A DNA stretch of 64,000 bases, from the sequence record PP355091.1. One strand, written 5' to 3'. Below, piece after piece: positions 16,521 to 28,639 of this stretch; within the stretch, counting starts at the first letter, position 1, and the number at the start of each line of letters is the position of its first letter. The stretch is from Escherichia phage 235Ecol030PP. The notes below the pieces were generated by a model, which saw only the letters and a list, made by a program, of their open reading frames with translations, was not told the origin of the DNA and searched no databases. The translations under genes were made by a program, and so were the position numbers.

Positions 16521-17485
16521 TGTATTCTTTAGAGGAATTTAATAATCAAGCAATAAACGCAGATTTCCAACGTAATAATATGTTTAGCTGCGTTTTTGCA
16601 ACAACTCCATCAACTAAAAGCTCTTCGTTGATAAGTTCAATTAGCAACTTTTCTTATAATAACTTGGGCCTAAATTCAAATTGGTTAGGATTAACTCAAG
16701 GTGATATTAATCAGGGAATTACCACGCTAATTACAGCTGGCACACAAAAACTGATAAGAAAATCAAGGGTTAGTAAATATCTTATTGGTGCCATGAGTCA
16801 ACGCACAGTTCAAAGTTTATTAGGCTCATTTACAGTTGGTACATATTTAATTGACTTCTTTAACATGGCATATAACTCATCTGGATTGATGATATACTCT
16901 GTAAAAATGCCAGAGAATAGATTATCCTATGAAACTGACTGGAACTATAATTCTCCTAATATTCGTATAACTGGGAGAGAATTAGACCCTTTGGTTATTT
17001 CATTTAGAATGGATTCAGAAGCTTGTAACTATCGTGCAATGCAAGACTGGGTTAACGCTGTTCAAGACCCAGTAACTGGACTGCGTGCTTTGCCACAAGA
17101 TGTCGAGGCAGATATTCAGGTTAATCTTCATTCTCGTAATGGATTGCCTCATACTGCGGTGATGTTCACCGGATGCATTCCAATATCAGTGAGCGCTCCT
17201 GAGCTATCATATGATGGAGATAACCAAATAACTACATTTGATGTTACTTTTGCGTACAGAGTGATGCAGGCTGGAGCAGTTGATAGGCAAGCTGCGCTTG
17301 AATGGCTTGAATCTGCTGCTATAAATGGTATTCAAAGCGTTCTCGGAAATAGTGGAGGTGTTACTGGACTATCTAATTCGCTTTCACGACTCAGTAGATT
17401 AGGTGGAACTGCAGGAAGCATTTCAAACATTAATACTATGACAGGAATTGTCAATTCGCAAAGTAAAATATTAGGAGCAATATAA
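16520..17485 (+). CDS. 54: Baseplate-tail tube initiator gp54
   Basis: 321 aa, T4 position. Confidence 0.85.
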   Translation: MYSLEEFNNQAINADFQRNNMFSCVFATTPSTKSSSLISSISNFSYNNLGLNSNWLGLTQGDINQGITTLITAGTQKLIRKSRVSKYLIGAMSQRTVQSLLGSFTVGTYLIDFFNMAYNSSGLMIYSVKMPENRLSYETDWNYNSPNIRITGRELDPLVISFRMDSEACNYRAMQDWVNAVQDPVTGLRALPQDVEADIQVNLHSRNGLPHTAVMFTGCIPISVSAPELSYDGDNQITTFDVTFAYRVMQAGAVDRQAALEWLESAAINGIQSVLGNSGGVTGLSNSLSRLSRLGGTAGSISNINTMTGIVNSQSKILGAI

Positions 17486-17489
17486 CAAT

Positions 17490-17520
17490 GGGGACCTTTC
17501 GGTCCCCATATTTTTATTTA
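17490..17520 (+). terminator. Intrinsic terminator after gene 54
   Basis: ggggacc-tttc-ggtcccc then atatttttattta. Confidence 0.7.
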
Positions 17521-17804
17521 CGGAATGAAATGAAAGCAGCAACTGAAGCAACTAAACTGTCTTCAATATAAACTTCAATTTTTACCGGAGCTTCTGACTC
17601 AAATTTACCTGTTACTACACCCTGAAAAATACTTTCAGTCTGTTCTGGCTTTGAAAAATTTTCAGAAGGAAAAATTCCAAACTTTTTATCTGTTCCGAAA
17701 ATTTTGATAAATTCATCATAAACCGCTTCGTTAAAAGCATTATCAGCAGGAATAACGCCTTCAACTACAAGTTCTTGACCTAAAAAGCGTAAAGAAGATT
17801 TCAT
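17514..17804 (-). CDS. Hypothetical protein (position of a T4 alt-upstream ORF)
   Basis: 96 aa ORF preceded by early promoter cassette and GAGGA Shine-Dalgarno. Confidence 0.5.
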   Translation of the reverse strand: MKSSLRFLGQELVVEGVIPADNAFNEAVYDEFIKIFGTDKKFGIFPSENFSKPEQTESIFQGVVTGKFESEAPVKIEVYIEDSLVASVAAFISFRK

Positions 17805-17835
17805 TTTGTGTTCCTCATGTTATGTCAGTAAGACT

Positions 17836-17865
17836 ACTATAACACAACACGAGGGACTTGTAAAC
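17836..17865 (-). promoter_or_regulatory. Early (sigma70-type) promoter for the 17514..17804 ORF
   Basis: - strand GTTTACA, 17-18 nt spacer, TATAGT; promoter plus leader nearly identical to the alc upstream region. Confidence 0.5.
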
Positions 17866-17879
17866 TACATTTTGAACTT

Positions 17880-18222
17880 TTTAGTACGCGTAATAGGCAT
17901 GCGTCGATTTTATACTGTTTCATTGTTTGAAGAGCAGTATCAAAACAGCATTAATGACACCAATTGGATTTCCACCCAAGTTTTTAAGCTTAACTAATGA
18001 TAGTTTCTCATTAACACCTATCATTACGATATGCATCATTTTGTCGCCTGGTTTAACGTTTTATCTGTATCACCGCCAGAGGTGTATGTACAAAATCTAA
18101 ATCCAGGAAGCACGCTTTCTTCGCCGGCTTGAATAGCAAAAATTTGAGGTATTTTATGCTTAGGATTTAAGTTAACAACCGGCGCCGAAGCGCCGTCAAA
18201 TAATTATGTAATAAGTTCCATG
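17880..18222 (-). pseudogene. Decayed duplicate of the alt 5' end (about first 100 codons)
   Basis: - strand translates MELIT*LFDGASAPVVNLNPKHKIPQIFAIQAGEESVLPGFRFCTYTSGGDTDK..., homologous to the Alt N-terminus but with stop at codon 6 and a later frameshift. Confidence 0.55.
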
Positions 18223-18224
18223 AT

Positions 18225-20276
18225 TTATCCTTGAACGAACTTGTAAGGCATGTTTGCAATATCTATGCAAGACGCAATAATTCCAAGAGATGATTCTACT
18301 TTCTGTTTAACATTTGATGAAACAAATGATGCAAAGTCAACTCTATCTTCTATATCACCTGTCATTGTAACCAATTCACCAGTTTCCATTAAATGGTCTC
18401 CGTCATAGATTACCGATTCGGTGAGTTCTTCTGTGGTCATAACTTCAGCTTGAATAAGCTTGTTGTTAGTTCTAACTGTTCCATCGTTGTAAGATGCATC
18501 GGTTATTTTATTAACTTTGACCATTAATCCACGTGGCAAAATGACTTCCATTTCATTTGAAGGCGCTAAACTTCCACCGGGTAAAACAACATTGACCTTA
18601 TCAGCCCCAGTAATAACCCATCCAATTCCAACTAAATTATCGCTAGAATTTACTAGTCCTTCATCAGTTTTATCAATAGAAACACTTAGACGCTTTTCGT
18701 CTGGTAAAACACCTATAGATGAATCAGTCATCCAAGTACCAAAAATATTTGGATATAATGATGTTGACACAAAGTTTCTAAAATAAAAAACTCGATTTTT
18801 TACCATTGCTTCATATATTGAAGGTAACATTCGTTGTGAACGATACAAAGTAATACCTTTTGGTAATCGTTCACCATTTTTAAAGGCTGAATCTAAATTA
18901 TCAATGGCTTGTTCTATTTCAGGTGCTGTTAAAATACTTGTACGCTCATCTGGATTATATAATCCCAAAAGAGCATTATTTATGTCTACATATCCTGAAC
19001 CTACATATTCACGAATTCCGCGTTTTTGCGCTGGCGTGTATTTAGATGAATCTTTATTTTCGACTATAGGATGTAATGACCATCCAGCGGTAAGAGCATA
19101 TCCACGTAATTCTCTTCGAATAATCTTTGTTTTTATTGCATTCCAAGAATTTTGTACTAACTCATTTGCAGCATCTTGGTTTAAATGCGAATGTCTGTTA
19201 ATATTTCTTTCAAACCAGGCACCTTTATATTTTTCTAAAGTATCATCGACGATAGAAGCAATAGTTTCTAAAGTTTTTATTGAAGTAATAGATTCTTTTC
19301 GTAATTTTTCTAAAGCTTTATTTTTTATTTCTGCATTAATAATGGATTCTTTATCTTCAGGAATTATAGAAGCTTCTCTGAATGCCATCCCAGCTGTAAC
19401 ACTGCTAAGAGCATTCTCTAGTGCAAATCCTGAAGTAGAAATTACCGTTAATTCATTAGAATCAGAAATTAAAGGCGCGTCCGCTGGTTTATTTAATTCT
19501 GCCGCTGAAGCCTCAAATTTTTGAAACATCGGTGTTTCAAATCTAGAAGATTCCAATGACTGACTTTGTGCAATTGCTCTACGGGAAATTTTAACTTTAA
19601 CGATTACAGCTTGGTCAGAACGTTTATCATTTTCTTGCGCAATAGATGCTGCAATTGCCTCATTTTTAGTTACTTGGGCTCCAGTATCTTTATTGATATA
19701 AACATCACCGACCTTCGATTCAACTTTAGTAAAGAGCTCGGTACTAATTTCCGGAACTCCTGGAATGTCTTCTAGTGATACATTTTTGCGATGTATAAGA
19801 ATATATGCATACTTTTTATCATAATCCCAGAGTTCCTTAAGAAGGACGTATCTGCCACCTGAACGACTACGGATAAGTCTATCAGCAATAACTTGAATTT
19901 GTCGAGCTTGACCAGCGGTTTTAGACTTAAGAATACGAAGCATACAGGCATCAATTTTATACTGACGCATCGTTTGCATTGCAACAGTAAAAACTGAATT
20001 GATATAATTAATTGGGCTTGGACCAAGACCTTTCAATTTAGCAATTGAACCTTTAGCGGTTAATGTAAAAGGAACAATATGCATCATTTTATCGCCCATC
20101 TTTAAATCACGATTAGTATCACCTCCAGATGTATAGGTACATAAACGAAAGCCTGGTTGTTCAATTGCGTCATCAACATGAACTGAAAAAATTTGCGGTA
20201 TTTTCTTCTTTGGATTTAAGTTTGTAATCGGAAGAGTAGTATCTTCGTCAAATAATTCTGTAATTAGTTCCATCAT
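18225..20276 (-). CDS. alt: Alt ADP-ribosyltransferase (packaged internal head protein)
   Basis: 683 aa (T4 Alt 682 aa); position after gene 54. Confidence 0.9.
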   Translation of the reverse strand: MMELITELFDEDTTLPITNLNPKKKIPQIFSVHVDDAIEQPGFRLCTYTSGGDTNRDLKMGDKMMHIVPFTLTAKGSIAKLKGLGPSPINYINSVFTVAMQTMRQYKIDACMLRILKSKTAGQARQIQVIADRLIRSRSGGRYVLLKELWDYDKKYAYILIHRKNVSLEDIPGVPEISTELFTKVESKVGDVYINKDTGAQVTKNEAIAASIAQENDKRSDQAVIVKVKISRRAIAQSQSLESSRFETPMFQKFEASAAELNKPADAPLISDSNELTVISTSGFALENALSSVTAGMAFREASIIPEDKESIINAEIKNKALEKLRKESITSIKTLETIASIVDDTLEKYKGAWFERNINRHSHLNQDAANELVQNSWNAIKTKIIRRELRGYALTAGWSLHPIVENKDSSKYTPAQKRGIREYVGSGYVDINNALLGLYNPDERTSILTAPEIEQAIDNLDSAFKNGERLPKGITLYRSQRMLPSIYEAMVKNRVFYFRNFVSTSLYPNIFGTWMTDSSIGVLPDEKRLSVSIDKTDEGLVNSSDNLVGIGWVITGADKVNVVLPGGSLAPSNEMEVILPRGLMVKVNKITDASYNDGTVRTNNKLIQAEVMTTEELTESVIYDGDHLMETGELVTMTGDIEDRVDFASFVSSNVKQKVESSLGIIASCIDIANMPYKFVQG

Positions 20277-20298
20277 ATCCTCTCTAGTGTGTTTATTC

Positions 20299-20306
20299 TA
20301 TTTATA
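20299..20306 (-). promoter_or_regulatory. Late promoter TATAAATA (- strand) for alt
   Basis: + strand tatttata 23 nt upstream of the alt ATG, just downstream of a hairpin. Confidence 0.5.
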
Positions 20307-20313
20307 AAATTAA

Positions 20314-20327
20314 AGGCCCGAAGGCCT
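20314..20327 (-). terminator. UUCG hairpin between the upstream ORF and alt
   Basis: - strand aggcc-ttcg-ggcct followed by AT-rich tract. Confidence 0.45.
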
Positions 20328-20516
20328 TTAGTAATCTAGCGGTAAGAGAGTACGATATATTTCAAACTTTGGTCCTTTTTCATAGGCATCAAATGTTTCT
20401 GTGAATTTATTATAAGCGTATGCATCTACAAATTCGAGAATGACTTGTGATACAGAAGTAGAAACATCTCCACCTTCTTTTTGAGCAATGACAATTGTTT
20501 CTAAGTAAGCTTTCAT
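20328..20516 (-). CDS. Hypothetical protein (position of T4 alt.-1)
   Basis: 62 aa; start overlaps gene 30 stop. Confidence 0.5.
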   Translation of the reverse strand: MKAYLETIVIAQKEGGDVSTSVSQVILEFVDAYAYNKFTETFDAYEKGPKFEIYRTLLPLDY

Positions 20517-21976
20517 AGACCAGTTACCTCATGAAAATCACCAAATACATCTTCGAATGTATTAGCTTTAGTTTTATCTTCGCGTAAACGAATCGCAATC
20601 GGAAGAAATAATTTAACGTAATCAGTGCGGCCATCAGATTTTAACCAACCGTTGCATTCGCACTCTAGAATTTTTCCAATATAATAATTTTGGTTTTCCA
20701 TAATGCGAGTACGGTCAAGTTCATGCGATTTTACACCGGCTTTATCTTTTAAGCCTGAACCAGCATTTACCTTAATTTTTCCACACTCTGACTCAAGAAT
20801 AAATCCACCTGCTTTAGTAGGGTCTTTACGGTGAGGATAAATTCCTACAATTTTTAAATCAACATCAATTACTTCTTTAAATTTATAGAGATTTTTTGAA
20901 CGAGCATTTTCCCATAATCCATCGATATTTTTGAGAATAATACCTTCAAGACCTTGGTCAATATACTTTTTATAAATTACCTTAGCTTCATCTAGGTTAT
21001 TTACTACCTGGTTTTCAATTAAAATTACTTTATCATAGCCTGATGTCATTTGTTCTAGTTTAGAAAAACGTACATCATACTTTAAACGAAATGCAGGAAG
21101 ACCATATATTTCTACTAATGGAACATAATCCCAGACCTGAAACTTCATGCATTGTGCTTCTTTTTCAGAAATGGTTCCCTTTAAAGATTTATTAGCGATT
21201 CCATTAGAAGTAGTACGTGATTCAGCTACTTCGGCGAATTCTTTGGCTTTACTAATTTCAGGATAAGCATCAAAAAGAAAATCTAGGCCTTCTGGCTCCT
21301 TTTTAACTTGCTCATGGTATACCAATTCGCCATCAATTAACACGCCTTCTGGATGAATCTGGCGGGCTTCAGTGGTCATTTTGATTAATTCTTCCTTAAG
21401 AAGATCTAATCCTAGATATTCATTACCGGCTCGTGATAAAAGACGAACATCATCTAATTCATCACCTCTGACTTCGGCAAAGCACCGAGCCCCATCAGCT
21501 TTTAACTGAGCAAAGGCTGGAAATTTGATATTCTTATTAATGCCTTTTTCATCATAAGAACTTGCAAGCATTTGAGGTTGTTCAGGAATTAAACCTGGCC
21601 AAACTTTGTTTGCAATAGATACTGAAGCACCACATTCAAGGTCTCGCATCATCACTCGACGCAAAACTTCAACATCATCTTTTTTACCGTCAGTAATATA
21701 TCCAGTTAATTCCTCAATTGCCACATTTCCAGTCAATTTCCGAGTAGCTAATGTGAATTCAATGAAGTCAAGCATATCGGTAAGAGTCAACATTCCAAAA
21801 CTCTGGGTAGCAATACCAGGTTTAGGCCATTTCTTGATATAATACTGCAACCCACGAGAATAAGTCAGACGATATACTCGTTTAAGCAATTCATTATCTT
21901 TATTCTTTTCAAGAATTGCTTGCTTCTGCTTAGTTGAACCAATAGATGCTATTTCGTTCAGAATTTTAAGAATCAT
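20513..21976 (-). CDS. 30: ATP-dependent DNA ligase gp30
   Basis: 487 aa equals T4 DNA ligase; adenylation motif KADGAR. Confidence 0.92.
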   Translation of the reverse strand: MILKILNEIASIGSTKQKQAILEKNKDNELLKRVYRLTYSRGLQYYIKKWPKPGIATQSFGMLTLTDMLDFIEFTLATRKLTGNVAIEELTGYITDGKKDDVEVLRRVMMRDLECGASVSIANKVWPGLIPEQPQMLASSYDEKGINKNIKFPAFAQLKADGARCFAEVRGDELDDVRLLSRAGNEYLGLDLLKEELIKMTTEARQIHPEGVLIDGELVYHEQVKKEPEGLDFLFDAYPEISKAKEFAEVAESRTTSNGIANKSLKGTISEKEAQCMKFQVWDYVPLVEIYGLPAFRLKYDVRFSKLEQMTSGYDKVILIENQVVNNLDEAKVIYKKYIDQGLEGIILKNIDGLWENARSKNLYKFKEVIDVDLKIVGIYPHRKDPTKAGGFILESECGKIKVNAGSGLKDKAGVKSHELDRTRIMENQNYYIGKILECECNGWLKSDGRTDYVKLFLPIAIRLREDKTKANTFEDVFGDFHEVTGL

Positions 21977-22242
21977 TATTCATCCTTCAGAGTTTGGTTT
22001 ACAGCTCTATTATAAATCAATTCATCATTAAGCTCAGTCAAAGACTTATGATATGTGGTTCTAACTTTATTTCCTTGCATCCAGTGCTTGATATAAATGA
22101 AACCTTGCTCTACGCATTTTTTAAAAATTCGTTCGTCTTTTTGAGATCGGAATTCTGGATTGCATCTAAAAAATTGATTTACGTGACCGTAATCACGTGT
22201 AGTATTACCTTCATTTTCATAAATAGTGTGAACAACAAACAT
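21976..22242 (-). CDS. Hypothetical protein (position of T4 30.1)
   Basis: 88 aa. Confidence 0.5.
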   Translation of the reverse strand: MFVVHTIYENEGNTTRDYGHVNQFFRCNPEFRSQKDERIFKKCVEQGFIYIKHWMQGNKVRTTYHKSLTELNDELIYNRAVNQTLKDE

Positions 22243-23081
22243 TAGAATGCTCCTTGGAAAATATTATCACCACAAGTAGGTCTATTATACAAATACTCTA
22301 TACCGCCGGGTTTAATATAGTTCCATGTCTGAAACGGATGTGTCTGATATGGATGATATAGATGATTATAAGGATTAAATCCAGGAGTTCTCCAGGTAGT
22401 GTTCCAAGGAAAAGAATCGTTTTTAATCATCTTTTCAATTACATCTTTTATAGCTTTTTCACTATCAAAACTTTCTTTATTTTCCTTTGGTGAAAAAAGC
22501 TTATTCTCTACATCGTTCCATGTATAAACTCGCTGAGCAGTTTTTGGAATACTGTCACGTTCCCCTCGAGCCATCCAATAAACAGGAACACTTAATATTT
22601 CACTCGCGTGATCGCAGTGGTGAGCGAGATCGTCAATATAACAAATTACGTTATATTTCTCTTTTGCCTTTTTGAACAACTCTTCTTTTGAAGAATCATG
22701 ACCACACATCAGTACTTCTGAGAAGGCACCAGGAAAAAGAGCATTCAAATTAAATTGACGATTCAGCAGAGCGTCAATAGAATCACCCAATGCTGTAACA
22801 GCTACAAAATTATAATCTTCTTTTAATTTGTTAATTACACACAGGGCATCTTTATATGGCGACAAGTAACGAATAAAATCTGAACGATTGTATTTTTCAA
22901 TTAACTTGACGCCAAGTTCTTCATCACAATTAAAAAGTTTACCAGGAGAAATAAATTTTTCATCTTGGATCATTTTTAAAATATGTTCCAACGGAAGATT
23001 ATATTTCTGAGCAAAATAAGGAAGGCCTGATTGCCAGCTTAAACATACTCCATCAATATCAGTTAAAATAGTAGGCTTCAT
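22242..23081 (-). CDS. HAD-like phosphatase/nucleotidase candidate (position of T4 30.2)
   Basis: 279 aa; N-terminal DIDGV motif typical of HAD motif I. Confidence 0.5.
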   Translation of the reverse strand: MKPTILTDIDGVCLSWQSGLPYFAQKYNLPLEHILKMIQDEKFISPGKLFNCDEELGVKLIEKYNRSDFIRYLSPYKDALCVINKLKEDYNFVAVTALGDSIDALLNRQFNLNALFPGAFSEVLMCGHDSSKEELFKKAKEKYNVICYIDDLAHHCDHASEILSVPVYWMARGERDSIPKTAQRVYTWNDVENKLFSPKENKESFDSEKAIKDVIEKMIKNDSFPWNTTWRTPGFNPYNHLYHPYQTHPFQTWNYIKPGGIEYLYNRPTCGDNIFQGAF

Positions 23082-23542
23082 AGAGAGTCTCTTAATAGGT
23101 TTAACACATCAATAAATTCAGCTTCGGTTAGTATTGTATCATCTTTTGTTAGACCACTAGCCATGCTGTGCTTCAAAACTTTTCCTTTCGAGGCTTGTAA
23201 TGCATCACGAAAGCCCTTGTTTTGGATCGCTGCTTCAAAATATGCATTTGTGTATAATTCTTTCCACGCCGGGGAGTATCTTGAAAACGGAACTCCAAGC
23301 CAGAAGAGGGTCCCACGGTCCTGAGCTCTAGCATAAGACCTTCCAGCTTGTTGGGCGGCAAGCCCGGATAACCCAAATATACGACGTTGTTGTTCAACAT
23401 TTTTCACCTTGCACCCTTGGAGGAATCCTTCAAGACCTCCAAATTGAATACCATCCATAACGAAAGGCCATTGGGCGAAATTACTTAATGCACATGATGG
23501 CCACCTAAAATTGCTTCTAATCTCTAACTCAGACATTTTCAA
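23078..23542 (-). CDS. NADAR/YbiA-like domain protein (position of T4 30.3)
   Basis: 154 aa; LSNFAQWPFVMDGIQFGGLEGFLQGCK resembles the YbiA motif FSNFAAWP...DG...SEHYFQAQK. Confidence 0.5.
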   Translation of the reverse strand: MKMSELEIRSNFRWPSCALSNFAQWPFVMDGIQFGGLEGFLQGCKVKNVEQQRRIFGLSGLAAQQAGRSYARAQDRGTLFWLGVPFSRYSPAWKELYTNAYFEAAIQNKGFRDALQASKGKVLKHSMASGLTKDDTILTEAEFIDVLNLLRDSL

Positions 23543-23735
23543 TGCTTATAATTTCAACATCAGCCCAATGACCATAGCAAGGAAGACAAAATTCAACTGG
23601 CCAGTTAGGGTCCTTTTCTAATATAATAGACTCAACTCGTGGTTCTTCATGTTCATCAGTATATGGATTTTTATCTGTTACTTTATATGTGACCTTAATG
23701 TACTGAATTCCAAAAATCTTATTAATTATATTCAT
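23529..23735 (-). CDS. Hypothetical protein
   Basis: 68 aa ORF. Confidence 0.4.
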   Translation of the reverse strand: MNIINKIFGIQYIKVTYKVTDKNPYTDEHEEPRVESIILEKDPNWPVEFCLPCYGHWADVEIISIENV

Positions 23736-23929
23736 ACTAATTCCTTTAATCCGTAAATAGGAGATAATTCATCACCCATACGAAGGTCTTCATTTCCATC
23801 TACCCAGGAAACAATATAAGCCTCTTTTATTTGAATACCACTCCATTTAAATGGAGGTAGAACCTTAGAAATTAATCCAGGTATACCAACTCCCTTTAAT
23901 TCAACAGTTTGACCTAAAAAGAATTTCAT
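23732..23929 (-). CDS. Hypothetical protein
   Basis: 65 aa ORF. Confidence 0.4.
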   Translation of the reverse strand: MKFFLGQTVELKGVGIPGLISKVLPPFKWSGIQIKEAYIVSWVDGNEDLRMGDELSPIYGLKELV

Positions 23930-24216
23930 TAGAACCTCATCTGAAAACCGTGCGATTTAACATTACCGCCATTAATATCAGAACTATTAATTTCACGTGC
24001 AATTGAAGGGTCAATGTCAATTTCACGATTGAGTTTAGTGATAGCTAAAGTATCGCGCCCATTTACAGTACGAAACTCTAAAGGACAAACCACATCAACG
24101 TAGTTTTTAATCGATTCGCTAGTAGGTTGCAAATGTGCAGGAAGGTCTTTAGGTGCCTTTGAGAAAACAACTTCACAGAAATTTTTGCGGGTATCAAAAT
24201 AAGTAGTCATAAACAT
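23929..24216 (-). CDS. Hypothetical protein
   Basis: 95 aa ORF. Confidence 0.45.
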   Translation of the reverse strand: MFMTTYFDTRKNFCEVVFSKAPKDLPAHLQPTSESIKNYVDVVCPLEFRTVNGRDTLAITKLNREIDIDPSIAREINSSDINGGNVKSHGFQMRF

Positions 24217-24233
24217 AATATTTTCCTCAATAG

Positions 24234-24248
24234 GGGGCCGAAGCCCCT
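24234..24248 (-). other. Intercistronic UUCG stem-loop (no U-run; likely RNA stability or processing element)
   Basis: - strand gaggggc-ttcg-gccccc between two ORFs. Confidence 0.4.
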
Positions 24249-24257
24249 CATTTTATT

Positions 24258-24635
24258 TTAAATATCAAATTCGTTAAGAACTACATCAAAGATTGCTTCA
24301 AGATGCTCAGGTTTAGCTCTGTTACTCAGAATATGACGAATCCAAGTTTTAACCAAAAGCTTGCGATTAACGCCATTCCAGCAAGGATGAGTCCCTAAAT
24401 CGCGTTGACGAAAATCATCATCCAGAGCGATTTTGAAGTTTGAACCTTCCATTGTGATTGAAACCGTGATTCCATTTTCAAATCGCATATAAACGTAATT
24501 AGGAGTCATATACTGCTCAATTTCGCATACTGATCCATTTTGATGTTTCCAAAGGCAAATAGTATCAATAGAACCTGCAATACCATTAGAAACATATTTA
24601 CGTTCAAAGTTGATGTAGTTCATTTTATTCTCCAA
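24258..24635 (-). CDS. Hypothetical protein
   Basis: 125 aa; GGAG Shine-Dalgarno and early promoter upstream. Confidence 0.5.
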   Translation of the reverse strand: MENKMNYINFERKYVSNGIAGSIDTICLWKHQNGSVCEIEQYMTPNYVYMRFENGITVSITMEGSNFKIALDDDFRQRDLGTHPCWNGVNRKLLVKTWIRHILSNRAKPEHLEAIFDVVLNEFDI

Positions 24636-24659
24636 GATGTTTAATTGCGGTACAGGTAT

Positions 24660-24688
24660 ATAATATCATATCCTGTACCAAAGTAAAC
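24660..24688 (-). promoter_or_regulatory. Early promoter candidate
   Basis: - strand TTTACT, spacer, TATTAT; upstream TTGCATAAA. Confidence 0.4.
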
Positions 24689-24692
24689 TATT

Positions 24693-25061
24693 TTATGCAA
24701 CTTTAATCCAATTATCTAAATTTAATTCACCTTTGGCTTTCATTTTTTCAATCAAGAGGTCAGCGGTAATACGACCATTTTGATACCACGTAACATCTTC
24801 AGAGTAACCAGTTTCTTTATCTTCATAAGTCTCGCAGCGAATTTTACCAAGAATCAAAGTTTTTAATTCGTATGTATCTCCAGTAAAAAAGTTAGTTAAC
24901 ATTATTTTCCAAGAGAAATCATCAGAAGGACCTTCAGGAGTCATACAATCTACGAATTCAAATTGTTCTTTGTATAAGTGCCACTGAAGTTCTTTAGTTT
25001 CGATAGCTTTATAGCCGTCGTGATCTTTACCTTTGATGTATGAGTTAAGATTGATTTTCAT
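24693..25061 (-). CDS. Hypothetical protein
   Basis: 122 aa. Confidence 0.5.
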   Translation of the reverse strand: MKINLNSYIKGKDHDGYKAIETKELQWHLYKEQFEFVDCMTPEGPSDDFSWKIMLTNFFTGDTYELKTLILGKIRCETYEDKETGYSEDVTWYQNGRITADLLIEKMKAKGELNLDNWIKVA

Positions 25062-25088
25062 TTTATTCTCCTTTGTTTGTGTAAGATA

Positions 25089-25118
25089 ATACTATCACAA
25101 AGGAACCATACTGTAAAC
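25089..25118 (-). promoter_or_regulatory. Early promoter candidate
   Basis: - strand GTTTACA, 17 nt, TAGTAT; upstream TTGCATAAA. Confidence 0.45.
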
Positions 25119-25139
25119 AACTTTATGCAATCTTTGGAA

Positions 25140-25166
25140 AATAAAAAAGGACTCCCGAAGGAGTCC
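25140..25166 (-). terminator. Intrinsic terminator (UUCG hairpin plus U-run)
   Basis: - strand ggactcc-ttcg-ggagtcc then ttttttat. Confidence 0.65.
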
Positions 25167-25171
25167 TTAAC

Positions 25172-25348
25172 TTATGCTTTCTGCTTACCAAAACGAGAAG
25201 CATCATCTCGAAGAACCGCACGTGCTCGGCGCATGATCTTCTCAACAGTTTGATTGATACGAGAGTTCGACCCACGCTTGTAGCCAGCGCGTTTAGAATC
25301 ACCAACTTTCTTTTCAACTGCTTTCTTTGCTTTAGCTTGTTTTGCCAT
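25172..25348 (-). CDS. Small highly basic protein (position of T4 30.9)
   Basis: 58 aa from ATG 25348 (MAKQAKAKKAVEKK...); ORF-track start lies further upstream. Confidence 0.45.
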   Translation of the reverse strand: MAKQAKAKKAVEKKVGDSKRAGYKRGSNSRINQTVEKIMRRARAVLRDDASRFGKQKA

Positions 25349-25635
25349 TATAAATTCTCTTTTAAATGAAAATGCAGGACTTATTGGCATTGCCTGCGCA
25401 AGCCCTCAAGGGGAACATAGGTTTTGAATATTTACCGACAGGATAACCATAAACCTCGTCATCATACCACCAAGACTTACACAGATAACACTTTTCTGAC
25501 GCATGATAGTAACATTCAAGAGGTACACCGTAAAACTGCCGGGGTCTTAAAACTATAATGATTCGCAAATCATTAATCAGACAGTTCGACGGCTCCTCGA
25601 TTTAGCTCACACTAAGGCAGTGAATCTCCAATAAA

Positions 25636-25884
25636 TTACTTCAGTGTTACCACAAAGTGACGAACTGCTTTTCGTGCAGCAGAAGCCAAAGGCTTAGCAT
25701 ATTTAAGTTCATCTTTTTCCTGAAGCTCAGCAGCTAATGCAGTTTGAGCAGGATTCAGATGTTTGAAATAACGCAGGATTTCAAGAGCTTCGGCTTCAAC
25801 ATCAATAGATGCGCCATAGTTTTCGTGACCATTATTCCATGCGTTTCGTTGCAGTTCAAGAGCGTGTTGTAATTGTTTAATCAT
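25636..25884 (-). CDS. rIII: RIII lysis inhibition accessory protein (antiholin co-factor)
   Basis: 82 aa, MIKQLQHALELQRNAWNN...; T4 length and position. Confidence 0.8.
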   Translation of the reverse strand: MIKQLQHALELQRNAWNNGHENYGASIDVEAEALEILRYFKHLNPAQTALAAELQEKDELKYAKPLASAARKAVRHFVVTLK

Positions 25885-26023
25885 TTAAAAATTCTCGTTA
25901 GAGATTAAAACTCGGTAGTCACGTTCTTCTGAATTTCATCTTCTTTCGACAGATCTCTCAGTTGTAGACTACCACATAGAATTGTTCGGTTAACTTATTA
26001 TTCCGACACCCAATTCATATTAT

Positions 26024-26031
26024 TATTTATA
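26024..26031 (-). promoter_or_regulatory. Late promoter TATAAATA (- strand) upstream of rIII
   Basis: + strand tatttata at the gene 31 stop. Confidence 0.35.
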
Positions 26032-26367
26032 TCACTTATAAAGACACGGAATAGCTTTATAGTGACAAGTAACGAATTTTTGTTTAATTTCTTTTGGCTG
26101 CTTAAGACCCAGAGCTACAAAAGGATGCGGAACGTTTCGAATTTGACCAACTGGAAGAGAAGTCAAATCACCAACTTCACAAAAACCTTCAGGAACATCA
26201 GGACCGACAGAGTGAATTACACACAGTTCAGGAACTTCACCTTGAACACGTTTACCGATAATAAGTCCTGATTCTGTAACTTCTTCATCACCGGCTTGTG
26301 CAGGTTCAGAAACTAAAATAACATATTCACCGACAGCACGAATTGGTAGCTGTTGTACTTCAGACAT
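26032..26367 (-). CDS. 31: Co-chaperonin gp31 (GroES analogue needed for gp23 folding)
   Basis: 111 aa, [19 protein letters not shown]...; T4 length. Confidence 0.88.
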
Positions 26368-26423
26368 CGTTTTTCCTTTTTGTTAACAGATGAATTAATA
26401 ATAACAAATAATTCTTAAAGCAT

Positions 26424-26732
26424 TTATTTACCAATAAATTGGAGCAAATGCTCAACTTTCATACCATTAACGGAAATCAATTTGTCAATAGAAAAACCTC
26501 GCCACGCACCAAGTTCAACATCAAATACTGGAACCATATCAGTAGATTCTTTCCTAGTAGATTCCGTCAATTTACCAGTTTGCATGGTTGGCATAAAGTC
26601 TGCATCACGAGTACCTTTCATAACACGAATAGTACCATCAGACTTTTCAAAAACTACGCTTGAAACACCCATGGACAATTTAGTTTTCAAAATTTCACGA
26701 ATTGCTACTTTTTGTTCAGTCGTCAGTTTCAT
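26424..26732 (-). CDS. Hypothetical protein (position of T4 31.1)
   Basis: 102 aa. Confidence 0.5.
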   Translation of the reverse strand: MKLTTEQKVAIREILKTKLSMGVSSVVFEKSDGTIRVMKGTRDADFMPTMQTGKLTESTRKESTDMVPVFDVELGAWRGFSIDKLISVNGMKVEHLLQFIGK

Positions 26733-26969
26733 TTATTTACCTATTACAGTTTTAATATGAGTTGTTCCACGTTCTTTAAGAGTGGAAAGTAATTTTTGGC
26801 ATTTTTCTAAATCAGATTTCCAACTATATGGTCTATCAATACTAGTCCAATCAGTTTTATAATACTGTTTCCATTTAGAGAAAAAATATTTCTTATACTC
26901 TACAGCAAACGAGATGTTCTCATTAGAATAAGAACTAATTGCTGTGAGCTTTACCAAACGAAATTTCAT
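26733..26969 (-). CDS. Hypothetical protein (position of T4 31.2)
   Basis: 78 aa. Confidence 0.45.
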   Translation of the reverse strand: MKFRLVKLTAISSYSNENISFAVEYKKYFFSKWKQYYKTDWTSIDRPYSWKSDLEKCQKLLSTLKERGTTHIKTVIGK

Positions 26970-27550
26970 TATTCACCACAGAATTCGTTGATATTTTCCC
27001 AGTTTAACTTATTCAAGTTTTTCTTAGGAACATTAAACACTTCAATACCTGCATTTCGCAGAATATCATCCCAGCCAGGTTTATTTTTATCGTATGTTTC
27101 GCAATAAACCAGTTTTTTAATTCCAGACTGAGCTATCGCTTTTGCGCAATCCGGACAAGGAGAAAGTGTTACATACATAGTAGCACCTTCAATAGAAGAA
27201 CCATTTCGTGCAGCAAACAAAATTGCATTTAGTTCAGCATGAATTTCATTTTTAGATGACCATTCCGAGTGAGCACTACGGTGTTCTTTCGCCAAGACAA
27301 AACGATCAGTTGAACCAAATGATACGCATTCAGGCTTATGACCTTGAATGATAGTATGTTTAGGCTTATTCAACAACCAACCTTGCTCAGCAGCATAATC
27401 ACAACAGTTCACACCCCCTGCGGGTGAACCATTATACCCAGTAGAAATAATACGTCCATTCTTTTCAATTACTGCTCCTACCTTCCAGGAGCAACATTTT
27501 GATTCCTGCGATACTAAATATGCAATTTGAAGTACTGTACTCGCTTTCAT
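26969..27550 (-). CDS. cd: dCMP deaminase
   Basis: 193 aa; zinc motifs HAELNA and PCPDCA. Confidence 0.9.
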   Translation of the reverse strand: MKASTVLQIAYLVSQESKCCSWKVGAVIEKNGRIISTGYNGSPAGGVNCCDYAAEQGWLLNKPKHTIIQGHKPECVSFGSTDRFVLAKEHRSAHSEWSSKNEIHAELNAILFAARNGSSIEGATMYVTLSPCPDCAKAIAQSGIKKLVYCETYDKNKPGWDDILRNAGIEVFNVPKKNLNKLNWENINEFCGE

Positions 27551-27885: not shown

Positions 27886-28118
27886 AGTACGCCATACACC
27901 CTTTGTGCTTCAACTAATCCATCAAAATCCAATTTGAGATGTGTTATTTGATCGCCATCGCCTGGATTCACAATTACTAATACTGAGCGAGGAGTTTCGG
28001 TAATAACACGAACCGATGTTTCAGGAAATCGTTCAGAAACCTTATTTACTAATTCCTGTGCAAATAGTTTAACTTTTTCTTGGAATTCTTTAACAGTAAT
28101 TGGTTTTTCGCTTAGCAT
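27882..28118 (-). CDS. Hypothetical protein
   Basis: 78 aa. Confidence 0.45.
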   Translation of the reverse strand: MLSEKPITVKEFQEKVKLFAQELVNKVSERFPETSVRVITETPRSVLVIVNPGDGDQITHLKLDFDGLVEAQRVYGVL

Positions 28119-28639
28119 GTTGATCCTAGCTCCTTACTTTCAACATTTTTAACTAATTTGACAGAAACTAATTCAGCATCTTGAGTAATCATTACCGGAC
28201 CTTCTTCATACTCTTCAAGATATTCTAGAGCTTTCTTTTTAGCTTCTTCCTTCGTATCAGTTTGAGCATAGATATAAAACATACAACCAGTAATACCTAC
28301 TACTTTCCACTTAATTTCTTTATCAGCTTTAATTTCAAATTTACTGACAGAATCATCTTTTTGAACTTCTTCGAAAAAAGAATATTCTAACATATAAGCA
28401 ATTGAAAATAACGGGCTATCTTTATAGGATTCGCCCATTACATCAATAGCTTTATACCAGCAGTCATCAATTTCGCGTTTAATGCTAATAACATTTTTCG
28501 CAGGATCTATTTTTACTTTAAATGAATTTTCCCCAATAAACTGGGCAATTCGTTTATTAGCCCCGCAAGTTTCATTAAAAATATCTTTATACCCAGTTTT
28601 AAAGCGATAAACCTTATCTTCTTCAAACCATTCGCTCAT
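28112..28639 (-). CDS. Hypothetical protein
   Basis: 175 aa. Confidence 0.5.
   Translation of the reverse strand: MSEWFEEDKVYRFKTGYKDIFNETCGANKRIAQFIGENSFKVKIDPAKNVISIKREIDDCWYKAIDVMGESYKDSPLFSIAYMLEYSFFEEVQKDDSVSKFEIKADKEIKWKVVGITGCMFYIYAQTDTKEEAKKKALEYLEEYEEGPVMITQDAELVSVKLVKNVESKELGSTC

What the first reader, a model, noticed from the sequence alone, without database searches (positions are those of the whole stretch)
23078..23542. NADAR/YbiA-like protein in the early gene cluster downstream of DNA ligase: candidate ADP-ribosylation reversal or anti-defence factor
The 154 aa product contains LSNFAQWPFVMDGIQFGGLEGFLQGCK, resembling the signature region of NADAR/YbiA (DUF1768) proteins (FSNFAAWP...DG...SEHYFQAQK). 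NADAR proteins have been reported to hydrolyse ADP-ribose from guanine in DNA, the modification made by DarT toxins. The same phage packages Alt, an ADP-ribosyltransferase, so the gene could either counter host DarTG-type defence or tune phage-made ADP-ribosylation. The adjacent 279 aa ORF (22242..23081) has a HAD-type DIDGV motif, suggesting a nucleotide-processing pair.
Basis: inference. Interest (0 to 1): 0.5.

Follow-up and report, generated by a model that had tools for sequence, protein, structure and literature searches.

The report
T4 adfN: known anti-DarTG1 NADAR enzyme

Summary
The ORF is real. It is the ortholog of phage T4 gene 30.3: 151 of 152 residues are identical (only I125M), in the T4 gene order alt, alt.1, 30, 30.1, 30.2, 30.3, 30.4.

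The likely start is the ATG at 23536 (152 aa), not the TTG at 23542.

Pfam files it under PF08010 (Phage_30_3, E 2e-70), not PF08719, so a direct NADAR profile hit is missing. The NADAR relationship still holds:
- 23 of 57 family members hit PF08719.
- The family profile aligns to E. coli YbiA (hhalign 94%, E 1e-7).
- E36, K43 and the phage-type H123 are present, and so is the C-terminal helix that RB69 lacks.

T4 gp30.3 was named AdfN in 2025. It removes guanine-linked ADP-ribose from DNA and is necessary and sufficient against DarTG1.

The neighbour 30.2 is a HAD phosphatase resembling 5'(3')-deoxyribonucleotidases. Published T4 transposon data show it is dispensable on DarTG1 hosts, so the proposed "pair" is not supported for that defence.

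The parts
23078..23536 (-). adfN (gene 30.3) coding sequence, 152 aa plus stop; phage-type NADAR DNA ADP-ribosylglycohydrolase
23537..23542 (-). Two extra codons (TTG AAA) included by the mechanical ORF call; probably not translated as part of AdfN
   Evidence: T4 annotation starts at the ATG. Published catalytic numbering E36/K43 fits only the ATG start. Most homologs start even further downstream.
23477..23485 (-). Codons S18-N19-F20, N-terminal NADAR motif (xSNFA)
   Evidence: Invariant in 57 family members. Aligns to YbiA SNF. Codons checked.
23408..23431 (-). E36-G-F-L-Q-G-C-K43: catalytic glutamate and lysine
   Evidence: E36 is invariant and K43 is conserved in at least 90% of the family. 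They align to YbiA E49 and K55 in SEHYFQAQK. E36A and K43A impair AdfN(T4) (PMC11825919).
23168..23170 (-). H123, the histidine that replaces the last-strand catalytic Glu (YbiA type) or Asp (DarG1 type); hallmark of phage NADARs
   Evidence: It is the only invariant His in the family. It lies at the end of predicted strand 120-123. Ungapped continuation of the hhalign alignment places it opposite YbiA E125. Literature.
23084..23125 (-). C-terminal helix (residues 138-151), intact here; most of it is lost in the frameshifted, DarTG1-sensitive RB69 allele
   Evidence: Predicted helix 138-151. Full-length identity to T4. RB69 frameshift at nucleotide 411 removes the last 15 residues and lowers activity (PMC11825919).
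23162..23164 (-). M125, the only amino-acid difference from T4 (I125)
   Evidence: I, M and V all occur at this column in the family. The same allele occurs at 100% identity in phages teqskov and Lutter.
22242..23081 (-). Gene 30.2, overlapping the adfN stop (ATGA): HAD-superfamily phosphatase domain (about residues 1-195) plus a low-confidence C-terminal tail. Neighbour, not shown to be part of the anti-DarT function
   Evidence: 98% identical to T4 30.2. D8, D10, G11, K132, D150 and D151 are invariant and T96 is conserved in at least 90%. Foldseek top hits are 5'(3')-deoxyribonucleotidases, E 2e-8. T4 insertions are neutral on DarTG1.
23529..23735 (-). Gene 30.4 (68 aa), whose last codons contain the adfN start codon
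   Evidence: T4 30.4 insertions show a moderate DarTG1 defect (log2FC -1.79, adjusted p 0.014), most simply a polar effect on adfN (inference).
23173..23400 (-). 30.3', a 75-codon ORF in the +1 frame inside adfN, annotated in T4
   Evidence: Still open in Dhakavirus CLB_P2, absent from distant homologs.

Best explanation
The gene is adfN (T4 gene 30.3). It encodes a minimal, core-only NADAR-fold enzyme, made from the gene block upstream of the ligase gene (an early block by my knowledge of T4; timing was not tested here).

Proposed mechanism: when the phage infects a cell carrying the DarTG1 toxin-antitoxin system, the DarT1 toxin attaches ADP-ribose to guanines in phage DNA and blocks replication. 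AdfN hydrolyses the guanine-ADP-ribose bond using E36, K43 and the phage-specific H123. This restores unmodified DNA so replication continues. It acts as an orphan antitoxin: it repairs the toxin's product and does not bind the toxin.

Shown here: orthology, fold, catalytic residues, intact C-terminus. Taken from the literature on the 99.3%-identical T4 protein: the enzymatic activity and the DarTG1 phenotype. Inferred: that the I125M allele behaves the same way.
For: Orthology: 151/152 aa identity to T4 gp30.3, with the same gene order from alt to cd.

Family and fold:
- PF08010 at 235 bits.
- 23 of 57 family members also hit PF08719 NADAR, best E 1.5e-7.
- The family profile hits E. coli YbiA first in the PDB, E 0.005.
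- hhalign against YbiA gives 94% probability, E 1.2e-7.
- AlphaFold2 model pLDDT 92.6, pTM 0.88.

Residues: S18, N19, F20, E36, G37, F38, Q40 and H123 are invariant in the family, and K43 is nearly so.

Literature:
- AdfN(T4) is necessary and sufficient for DarTG1 resistance. E36A and K43A impair it, and purified protein removes ADP-ribose from DarT1-modified DNA (PMC11825919).
- T4 NADAR hydrolyses guanosine-ADPr but not thymidine-ADPr in vitro (PMC11125620; PMC12945103).
- In T4 transposon sequencing, 30.3 insertions drop by log2FC -7.25 (adjusted p 0) on a darTG1 host and are neutral otherwise.
Against: - No assay was done on this allele. M125 lies two residues from the catalytic H123, although I, M and V all occur at this column in the family.
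- hmmscan gives no direct PF08719 hit for this protein.
- AdfN(T4) does not rescue DarT1 toxicity in uninfected E. coli and only weakly rescues non-T-even phages. The simple 'free enzyme cleans DNA' picture is therefore incomplete, and an unknown T-even factor may be needed.
- It is unknown whether this phage's natural hosts carry DarTG1.
Confidence: 0.93

Rival explanations
1. Besides DarT1 damage, the enzyme has a second natural substrate, for example guanine ADP-ribosylation of RNA or DNA made by other guanine-specific transferases (pierisin/ScARP-like toxins or undiscovered defence systems). DarTG1 would then be only one of its targets. This adds to the best explanation and does not exclude it.
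For: NADAR hydrolysis acts on the product and does not depend on which toxin made it (discussion in PMC11825919). [quoted passage not shown] The family is found in about 1,500 phage records infecting many host genera, which may be broader than DarTG1 alone would explain (inference).
Against: The only in vivo phenotype on record is against DarTG1. T4 30.3 insertions are neutral on plain K-12. By the summary table in PMC12945103, cytidine-ADPr removal is listed for the NADAR and YbiA types only, not the phage type.
Confidence: 0.15
2. The enzyme reverses or tunes ADP-ribosylation made by the phage's own transferases (Alt, ModA, ModB).
For: Alt is encoded about 3 kb away in the same window. Both activities concern ADP-ribose.
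Against: Every NADAR substrate reported in the papers read here is a nucleobase-ADP-ribose linkage in DNA or RNA. Alt is annotated as a protein (RNA polymerase) ADP-ribosyltransferase. 30.3 is non-essential without DarTG1 and alt insertions have no DarTG1 phenotype (log2FC -0.01). In Acj61 alt lies on the opposite strand from the 30-30.3 block, and in KVP40 30.3 is not near alt at all.
Confidence: 0.03
3. 30.3 and the overlapping downstream gene 30.2 (HAD phosphatase) form a functional two-enzyme module. 30.2 would either be the T-even-specific factor AdfN needs, or would process the released ADP-ribose or nucleotide.
For: The 30.3 stop and 30.2 start overlap (ATGA). The adjacency is kept in T4, Dhakavirus CLB_P2 and Acinetobacter phage Acj61. 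30.2 is a genuine HAD phosphatase closest to 5'(3')-deoxyribonucleotidases. AdfN(T4) works fully only in T-even infections.
Against: T4 30.2 insertions (71 sites) show no fitness loss on a darTG1 host: log2FC -0.12, p 0.61. The adjacency is absent in KVP40, RSP15 and a metagenomic 308-kb phage-like contig, where the downstream gene is unrelated to 30.2. In Enterobacter phage MY742 the two genes lie about 120 kb apart in the record. Overlapping start and stop codons also occur at the 30.4/30.3 and 30.2/30.1 junctions and at other junctions of this block in T4 (coordinates). Both genes are near-core Straboviridae genes with almost the same host distribution, so co-occurrence tells us little.
Confidence: 0.04
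4. It is a YbiA-type housekeeping N-glycosidase that removes reactive riboflavin-pathway intermediates.
For: E. coli YbiA is among the best structural and profile matches.
Against: The YbiA-type last-strand Glu is replaced by His in every family member. Only 20% identity to YbiA. Published phylogenies place phage NADARs closest to DarG1-type antitoxins, not YbiA. The DarTG1 phenotype is strong and specific.
Confidence: 0.02

Closest known systems
AdfN(T4) = T4 gp30.3 (NP_049816.1), anti-DarT factor NADAR (Johannesman et al., Nat Commun 2025, PMC11825919)
   Same: Same gene: 151/152 residues, same length, same genomic slot between 30.4 and 30.2, same catalytic E36, K43 and H123, intact C-terminal helix.
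   Different: One conservative substitution (I125M) and three synonymous changes. No experiment on this allele.
DarG1, the NADAR antitoxin of DarTG1 (E. coli C7; Geobacter lovleyi structure 8bat)
   Different: No adjacent DarT1 gene, so it is an orphan. It lacks the N-terminal extension: 152 aa against 219, with 133 aligned. His replaces the catalytic Asp. AdfN(T4) cannot replace DarG1 in uninfected cells.
E. coli YbiA (2b3w), Pfam PF08719 NADAR
   Different: 20% identity. Glu125 of YbiA corresponds to His123 here. YbiA is a housekeeping riboflavin-intermediate N-glycosidase and gives no DarT1 protection in vivo.
Phytophthora nicotianae NADAR (8bau, with ADP-ribose bound)
   Different: 19% identity. 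Eukaryotic (oomycete) protein with Glu at the last-strand position. No phage context.
AdfN(Bas32) and AdfN(Bas60), NADARs of T5-like and Vequintavirinae phages; AdfM (T4 tk.4), AdfA (T4 61.2)
   Same: All are phage counter-defences against DarTG systems. The Bas NADARs carry out the same reaction.
   Different: The Bas NADARs belong to other NADAR clades and were acquired independently. AdfM is a macrodomain protein acting against DarTG2 (thymidine-ADPr). AdfA, at least in its R164H escape form, associates with DarT1. None of these was identified in this window.

Membership tests
NADAR superfamily | NADAR fold (compact, mostly alpha-helical core with short strands) | tested here: met
NADAR superfamily | Significant sequence-profile relationship to canonical NADAR (PF08719/YbiA) | tested here: met
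   hhalign of the family alignment against YbiA: 94% probability, E 1.2e-7. Family HMM against the PDB: YbiA is the top hit, E 0.005. 23 of 57 family members hit PF08719, best E 1.5e-7. Caveat: the window protein alone gives no PF08719 hit at E<=1, because Pfam keeps it in the separate family PF08010.
NADAR superfamily | Catalytic glutamate and lysine of the E-x-x-x-Q-x-x-K block, plus the upstream SNF motif | tested here: met
   S18, N19, F20 and E36 are invariant and K43 is conserved in at least 90%. They align to the YbiA SNF, E49 and K55.
NADAR superfamily | [quoted passage not shown] | tested here: met
   H123 is invariant, sits at the end of strand 120-123 and falls opposite YbiA E125. 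The papers describe His as the phage-type state.
NADAR superfamily | Hydrolysis of guanine-linked ADP-ribose on nucleic acid | not testable with these tools
   Shown in vitro for the 99.3%-identical T4 protein (PMC11125620, PMC11825919, PMC12945103).
Phage NADAR / gp30.3 / AdfN (Pfam PF08010) | Match to PF08010 above the gathering score | tested here: met
   235 bits against a cutoff of 36, covering the full model 1-138.
Phage NADAR / gp30.3 / AdfN (Pfam PF08010) | Orthology to T4 30.3 (sequence and synteny) | tested here: met
   151/152 identity. Flanked by 30.4 and 30.2 as in T4. 97.4% nucleotide identity across 16769..24704.
Phage NADAR / gp30.3 / AdfN (Pfam PF08010) | Full length with the C-terminal helix (no RB69-type frameshift) | tested here: met
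   152 aa ending ...LNLLRDSL as in T4. Predicted helix 138-151.
Phage NADAR / gp30.3 / AdfN (Pfam PF08010) | Confers resistance to DarTG1 during infection | not testable with these tools
   Shown for T4 by deletion, complementation and transposon sequencing (log2FC -7.25).
DarG1 antitoxin (DarT1-associated, BC4488-type NADAR) | Encoded next to a DarT1 ADP-ribosyltransferase gene | tested here: not met
   The neighbours are 30.4 (68 aa, phrog_2042) and the 30.2 HAD phosphatase. Neither 30.3 nor 30.2 hits PADLOC.
DarG1 antitoxin (DarT1-associated, BC4488-type NADAR) | N-terminal extension and Asp at the last-strand catalytic position | tested here: not met
   Core-only 152 aa, whereas 8bat has 219 residues of which 133 align. 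His123 stands in place of Asp.
HAD-superfamily phosphatase (for neighbour 30.2) | Four HAD motifs: DxD, S/T, K, DD | tested here: met
   D8, D10, G11, K132, D150 and D151 are invariant and T96 is conserved in at least 90% across 45 homologs.
HAD-superfamily phosphatase (for neighbour 30.2) | HAD Rossmannoid fold with a helical cap | tested here: met
   AlphaFold2 N-terminal domain pLDDT mostly 93-98. 112 PDB hits at E<=0.001, and all 50 listed are HAD-superfamily entries. Top hits are 5'(3')-deoxyribonucleotidases 2jao and 3bwv, E 2e-8. No Pfam or NCBIfam HAD model reaches significance.

The most novel reading that the evidence does not exclude
AdfN works fully only inside T-even infections (published), so it may depend on a phage partner that has not been identified, or it may have a second natural substrate such as guanine-ADP-ribosylated RNA or damage from other guanine-specific transferases. 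The overlapping HAD phosphatase 30.2 could be linked to it in a role that is independent of DarTG1. Nothing in this window points to that partner, and the T4 transposon data argue against 30.2 for DarTG1.
Probability: 0.08. Interest if true: 0.45.

Novelty: already known. Interest (0 to 1): 0.1.

Why it matters
For this window it matters little scientifically. The gene's identity, fold, chemistry and biological role were published between 2023 and 2025 for a protein that differs by one residue.

The practical value is in annotation. The public phage records examined here mostly label this gene 'hypothetical protein'. Some call it from an internal Met27, which removes the SNF motif (Lutter gp215; 126-aa clusters P0004-P0006). 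It can be annotated as adfN, and the intact gene suggests this phage resists DarTG1.

The open question from the literature is why AdfN(T4) needs a T-even infection context. This analysis does not answer it, and only disfavours 30.2 as the missing factor.

Tried and rejected
- Direct hmmscan against Pfam, NCBIfam and PADLOC gave only PF08010, with no PF08719, NCBIfam or PADLOC hit. A single-sequence phmmer search of the PDB gave one chance-level hit. Neither could decide NADAR membership, so I moved to a family alignment, profile searches and structure prediction.
- I tested 30.2 as AdfN's functional partner. The HAD identity was confirmed, but the link was rejected on published T4 transposon data and on loss of adjacency in KVP40, RSP15, MY742 and a metagenomic contig.
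- I checked whether the gene downstream of a distant 30.3 homolog (L006, 254 aa) is a cryptic 30.2. It is not (hhalign probability 0.05%).
- A literature search for 'gp30.2' returned no papers.
- I considered whether the internal ORF 30.3' is a conserved overlapping gene. It is kept in close relatives only, and by eye it diverges much faster than the adfN frame, so there is no evidence it is under selection.
- The sigma-70 promoter scan of 20000..27000 was no better than shuffled sequence (22 sites against 24.5 expected), so it says nothing about expression.

Full report
**What is there**

The window is a Tequatrovirus (T4-like) genome segment. Around the finding, every minus-strand gene follows the T4 order alt, alt.1, 30 (ligase), 30.1, 30.2, 30.3, 30.4 and on to rIII, 31 and cd. 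Nucleotide identity to T4 is 97.4% across 16769..24704.

The reported ORF is real. Translated from the ATG at 23536, it is 152 aa and 151/152 identical to T4 gp30.3, with I125M the only amino-acid change. There are four nucleotide differences, three of them synonymous. Phages teqskov and Lutter carry a 100% identical protein.

The mechanical ORF call begins two codons earlier at a TTG (23542). The T4 annotation, the published residue numbers and the N-termini of homologs all favour the ATG, which lies inside the last codons of 30.4 (ATGTCTGA).

The genes are on the minus strand, so 30.3 is upstream of the ligase in the direction of transcription.

**Is it a NADAR?**

Direct hmmscan puts the protein in Pfam PF08010 'Phage_30_3' (E 2e-70, 235 bits against a cutoff of 36). 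It lists no PF08719 hit at E<=1. NCBIfam and PADLOC give nothing, and single-sequence phmmer against the PDB gives only noise.

The family-level evidence shows why that would be the wrong conclusion. I collected 104 homologs and aligned 57 full-length ones down to about 35% identity.
- 23 of the 57 hit PF08719 themselves, best E 1.5e-7.
- The family HMM finds E. coli YbiA as its top PDB hit, E 0.005.
- hhalign of the family against YbiA gives 94% probability, E 1.2e-7 over 91 columns.
- An AlphaFold2 model built from the alignment is confident (pLDDT 92.6, pTM 0.88).

**Catalytic residues**

S18, N19, F20, E36, G37, F38, Q40 and H123 are invariant in the family, and K43 is conserved in at least 90%. 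E36 and K43 align with the Glu and Lys of YbiA's SEHYFQAQK. These are the residues mutated in the AdfN paper (E36A, K43A).

H123 ends the last predicted strand, 120-123. By ungapped continuation of the hhalign alignment it falls opposite YbiA E125. This matches the published rule: Glu in YbiA-type NADARs, Asp in DarG1-type, His in phage NADARs.

The C-terminal helix (138-151) is intact. The RB69 frameshift removes the last 15 residues, and that phage is DarTG1-sensitive.

**What it does**

This part rests on the literature, applied to a protein that differs by one conservative residue.
- Phage NADARs with the catalytic His were already recognised as a distinct group by Schuller et al. 2023 (PMC11543638), and gp30.3 is named as the phage NADAR in PMC11125620.
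- PMC11125620 showed that the purified T4 protein hydrolyses guanosine-ADPr but not thymidine-ADPr on DNA. It also showed that it does not protect uninfected cells from DarT1.
- Johannesman et al. 2025 (PMC11825919) renamed it AdfN. They showed it is necessary and sufficient for DarTG1 resistance in T-even phages, that it does not bind DarT1, that it needs E36 and K43 for full function, and that it removes ADP-ribose from DarT1-modified DNA. It works fully only during T-even infection, independent of cytosine modification.
- T4 transposon sequencing (HIDEN-SEQ, bioRxiv 10.1101/2025.11.20.689424) gives 30.3 insertions a log2FC of -7.25 (adjusted p 0) on a darTG1 host. They are neutral on plain K-12.

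The best explanation is therefore an orphan antitoxin-like DNA ADP-ribosylglycohydrolase that reverses DarT1 damage to phage guanines.

Alt is present (18225..20276, 99% identical to T4 Alt). There is no support for AdfN tuning Alt's products. Every NADAR substrate reported in the papers read here is a nucleobase-ADP-ribose linkage, and T4 alt insertions are neutral on DarTG1 (log2FC -0.01).

The 279-aa neighbour is T4 30.2 (98% identity), and the DIDGV is a genuine HAD motif I.
- Across 45 homologs D8, D10, G11, K132, D150 and D151 are invariant and T96 is conserved in at least 90%, giving all four HAD motifs.
- The AlphaFold2 N-terminal domain (about residues 1-195) is confident, and the C-terminal tail is variable and low-confidence.
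- Foldseek finds 112 PDB hits at E<=0.001. All 50 listed are HAD-superfamily entries, led by 5'(3')-deoxyribonucleotidases (2jao, 3bwv; E 2e-8).
- No Pfam or NCBIfam HAD model reaches significance, and I found no literature on gp30.2.

Its start codon overlaps the adfN stop (ATGA), and the adjacency persists in Dhakavirus CLB_P2 and Acinetobacter phage Acj61. A functional pairing against DarTG1 is nevertheless disfavoured.
- T4 30.2 insertions (71 sites) are neutral on DarTG1: log2FC -0.12, p 0.61.
- The adjacency is lost in KVP40, RSP15, MY742 and a 308-kb metagenomic phage-like contig, where the downstream gene is unrelated.
- Both genes are near-core Straboviridae genes with almost the same host distribution (1,510 and 1,452 records), so co-occurrence carries no signal.

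**Comparison with known systems and novelty**

The gene is a member of the phage NADAR (gp30.3/AdfN) family and specifically an allele of T4 adfN.

It works like DarG1 (same fold, same reaction, acts on the toxin's product) but is not a DarG1. There is no adjacent DarT1, no N-terminal extension, and His stands in place of Asp. It shares fold and motifs with YbiA but not the Glu or the housekeeping role.

Nothing found here departs from the published picture. The only difference is I125M, at a column where I, M and V all occur.

Novelty: already known. Interest is low. The value is for annotation, since the public records examined mostly call this gene 'hypothetical protein' and some start it at Met27, which removes the SNF motif.

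**Residual uncertainty**

No experiment exists on this allele. The basis of AdfN's dependence on T-even infection is unknown. Additional substrates, such as RNA guanine-ADPr or the products of other guanine transferases, remain possible.

Noticed in passing
window 22242..23081 (-): Gene 30.2, uncharacterised in T4, is a HAD-superfamily phosphatase. All four motifs are conserved (D8/D10, T96, K132, D150/D151). Its predicted fold is closest to 5'(3')-deoxyribonucleotidases, and it carries a variable, low-confidence C-terminal tail (about residues 200-279). No Pfam or NCBIfam model detects it and no paper mentions gp30.2. It is dispensable in T4 on K-12 and on DarTG1 hosts.
   Followed up: yes
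window 23173..23400 (-): A 75-codon ORF (T4 '30.3'') lies in the +1 frame inside adfN. It is still open, with the same length, in Dhakavirus CLB_P2 (about 86% AdfN identity). By eye its sequence diverges much faster than the AdfN frame, and no comparable ATG ORF exists in Acj61, KVP40, RSP15 or a metagenomic homolog. It is probably fortuitous, but this was not tested statistically.
   Followed up: partly
window 23529..23735 (-) (gene 30.4): In the published T4 HIDEN-SEQ table, insertions in 30.4 also lose fitness on DarTG1 (log2FC -1.79, adjusted p 0.014). The adfN ATG lies inside the last codons of 30.4 (ATGTCTGA), so a polar or translational-coupling effect is the simplest reading. A real contribution of the 68-aa protein is not excluded.
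   Followed up: partly
L011 2579..2959 (phage Lutter gp215); protein clusters P0004-P0006: Some public records call adfN from the internal Met27 (126 aa), which deletes the invariant SNF motif. Most of the records seen label it 'hypothetical protein'. Features annotated under a few distant matches carry unrelated names ('DprA-like', 'p10VF-like homing endonuclease'). Annotation lags behind the 2023-2025 literature.
   Followed up: partly
window 24693..25061 (-): The gene at the 30.8 position (122 aa, PF06019 Phage_30_8, E 4e-42) does not align to T4 30.8 at the DNA level, although the flanks are 96-97% identical. This looks like a divergent allele swapped into a conserved backbone.
   Followed up: partly
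window 28112..28639 (-): A 175-aa ORF occupies about 530 bp that T4 lacks between cd.2 and cd.3. It has no Pfam hit. It matches phrog_3710 (unknown function, E 5e-54) and weakly matches a 'goF mRNA metabolism modulator' PHROG (E 0.0065). It is an accessory gene of unknown role.
   Followed up: partly
L006 6001..6468 (metagenomic contig, 308 kb): A 38%-identical gp30.3-family NADAR sits in a jumbo-phage-like contig among many small unannotated ORFs, near genes with NUDIX and Thg1 Pfam hits and without a 30.2 neighbour. The family reaches well beyond the classic T4-like gene order.
   Followed up: partly
window 20311..20330 (-), 24233..24248 (+), 25147..25168 (-): GC-rich hairpins followed by T runs (terminator-like) lie between alt.1 and alt, between 30.7 and 30.6, and in the 30.9 region. 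Together they may divide the long minus-strand gene block into transcription units. The sigma-70 promoter scan was no better than shuffled sequence.
   Followed up: no
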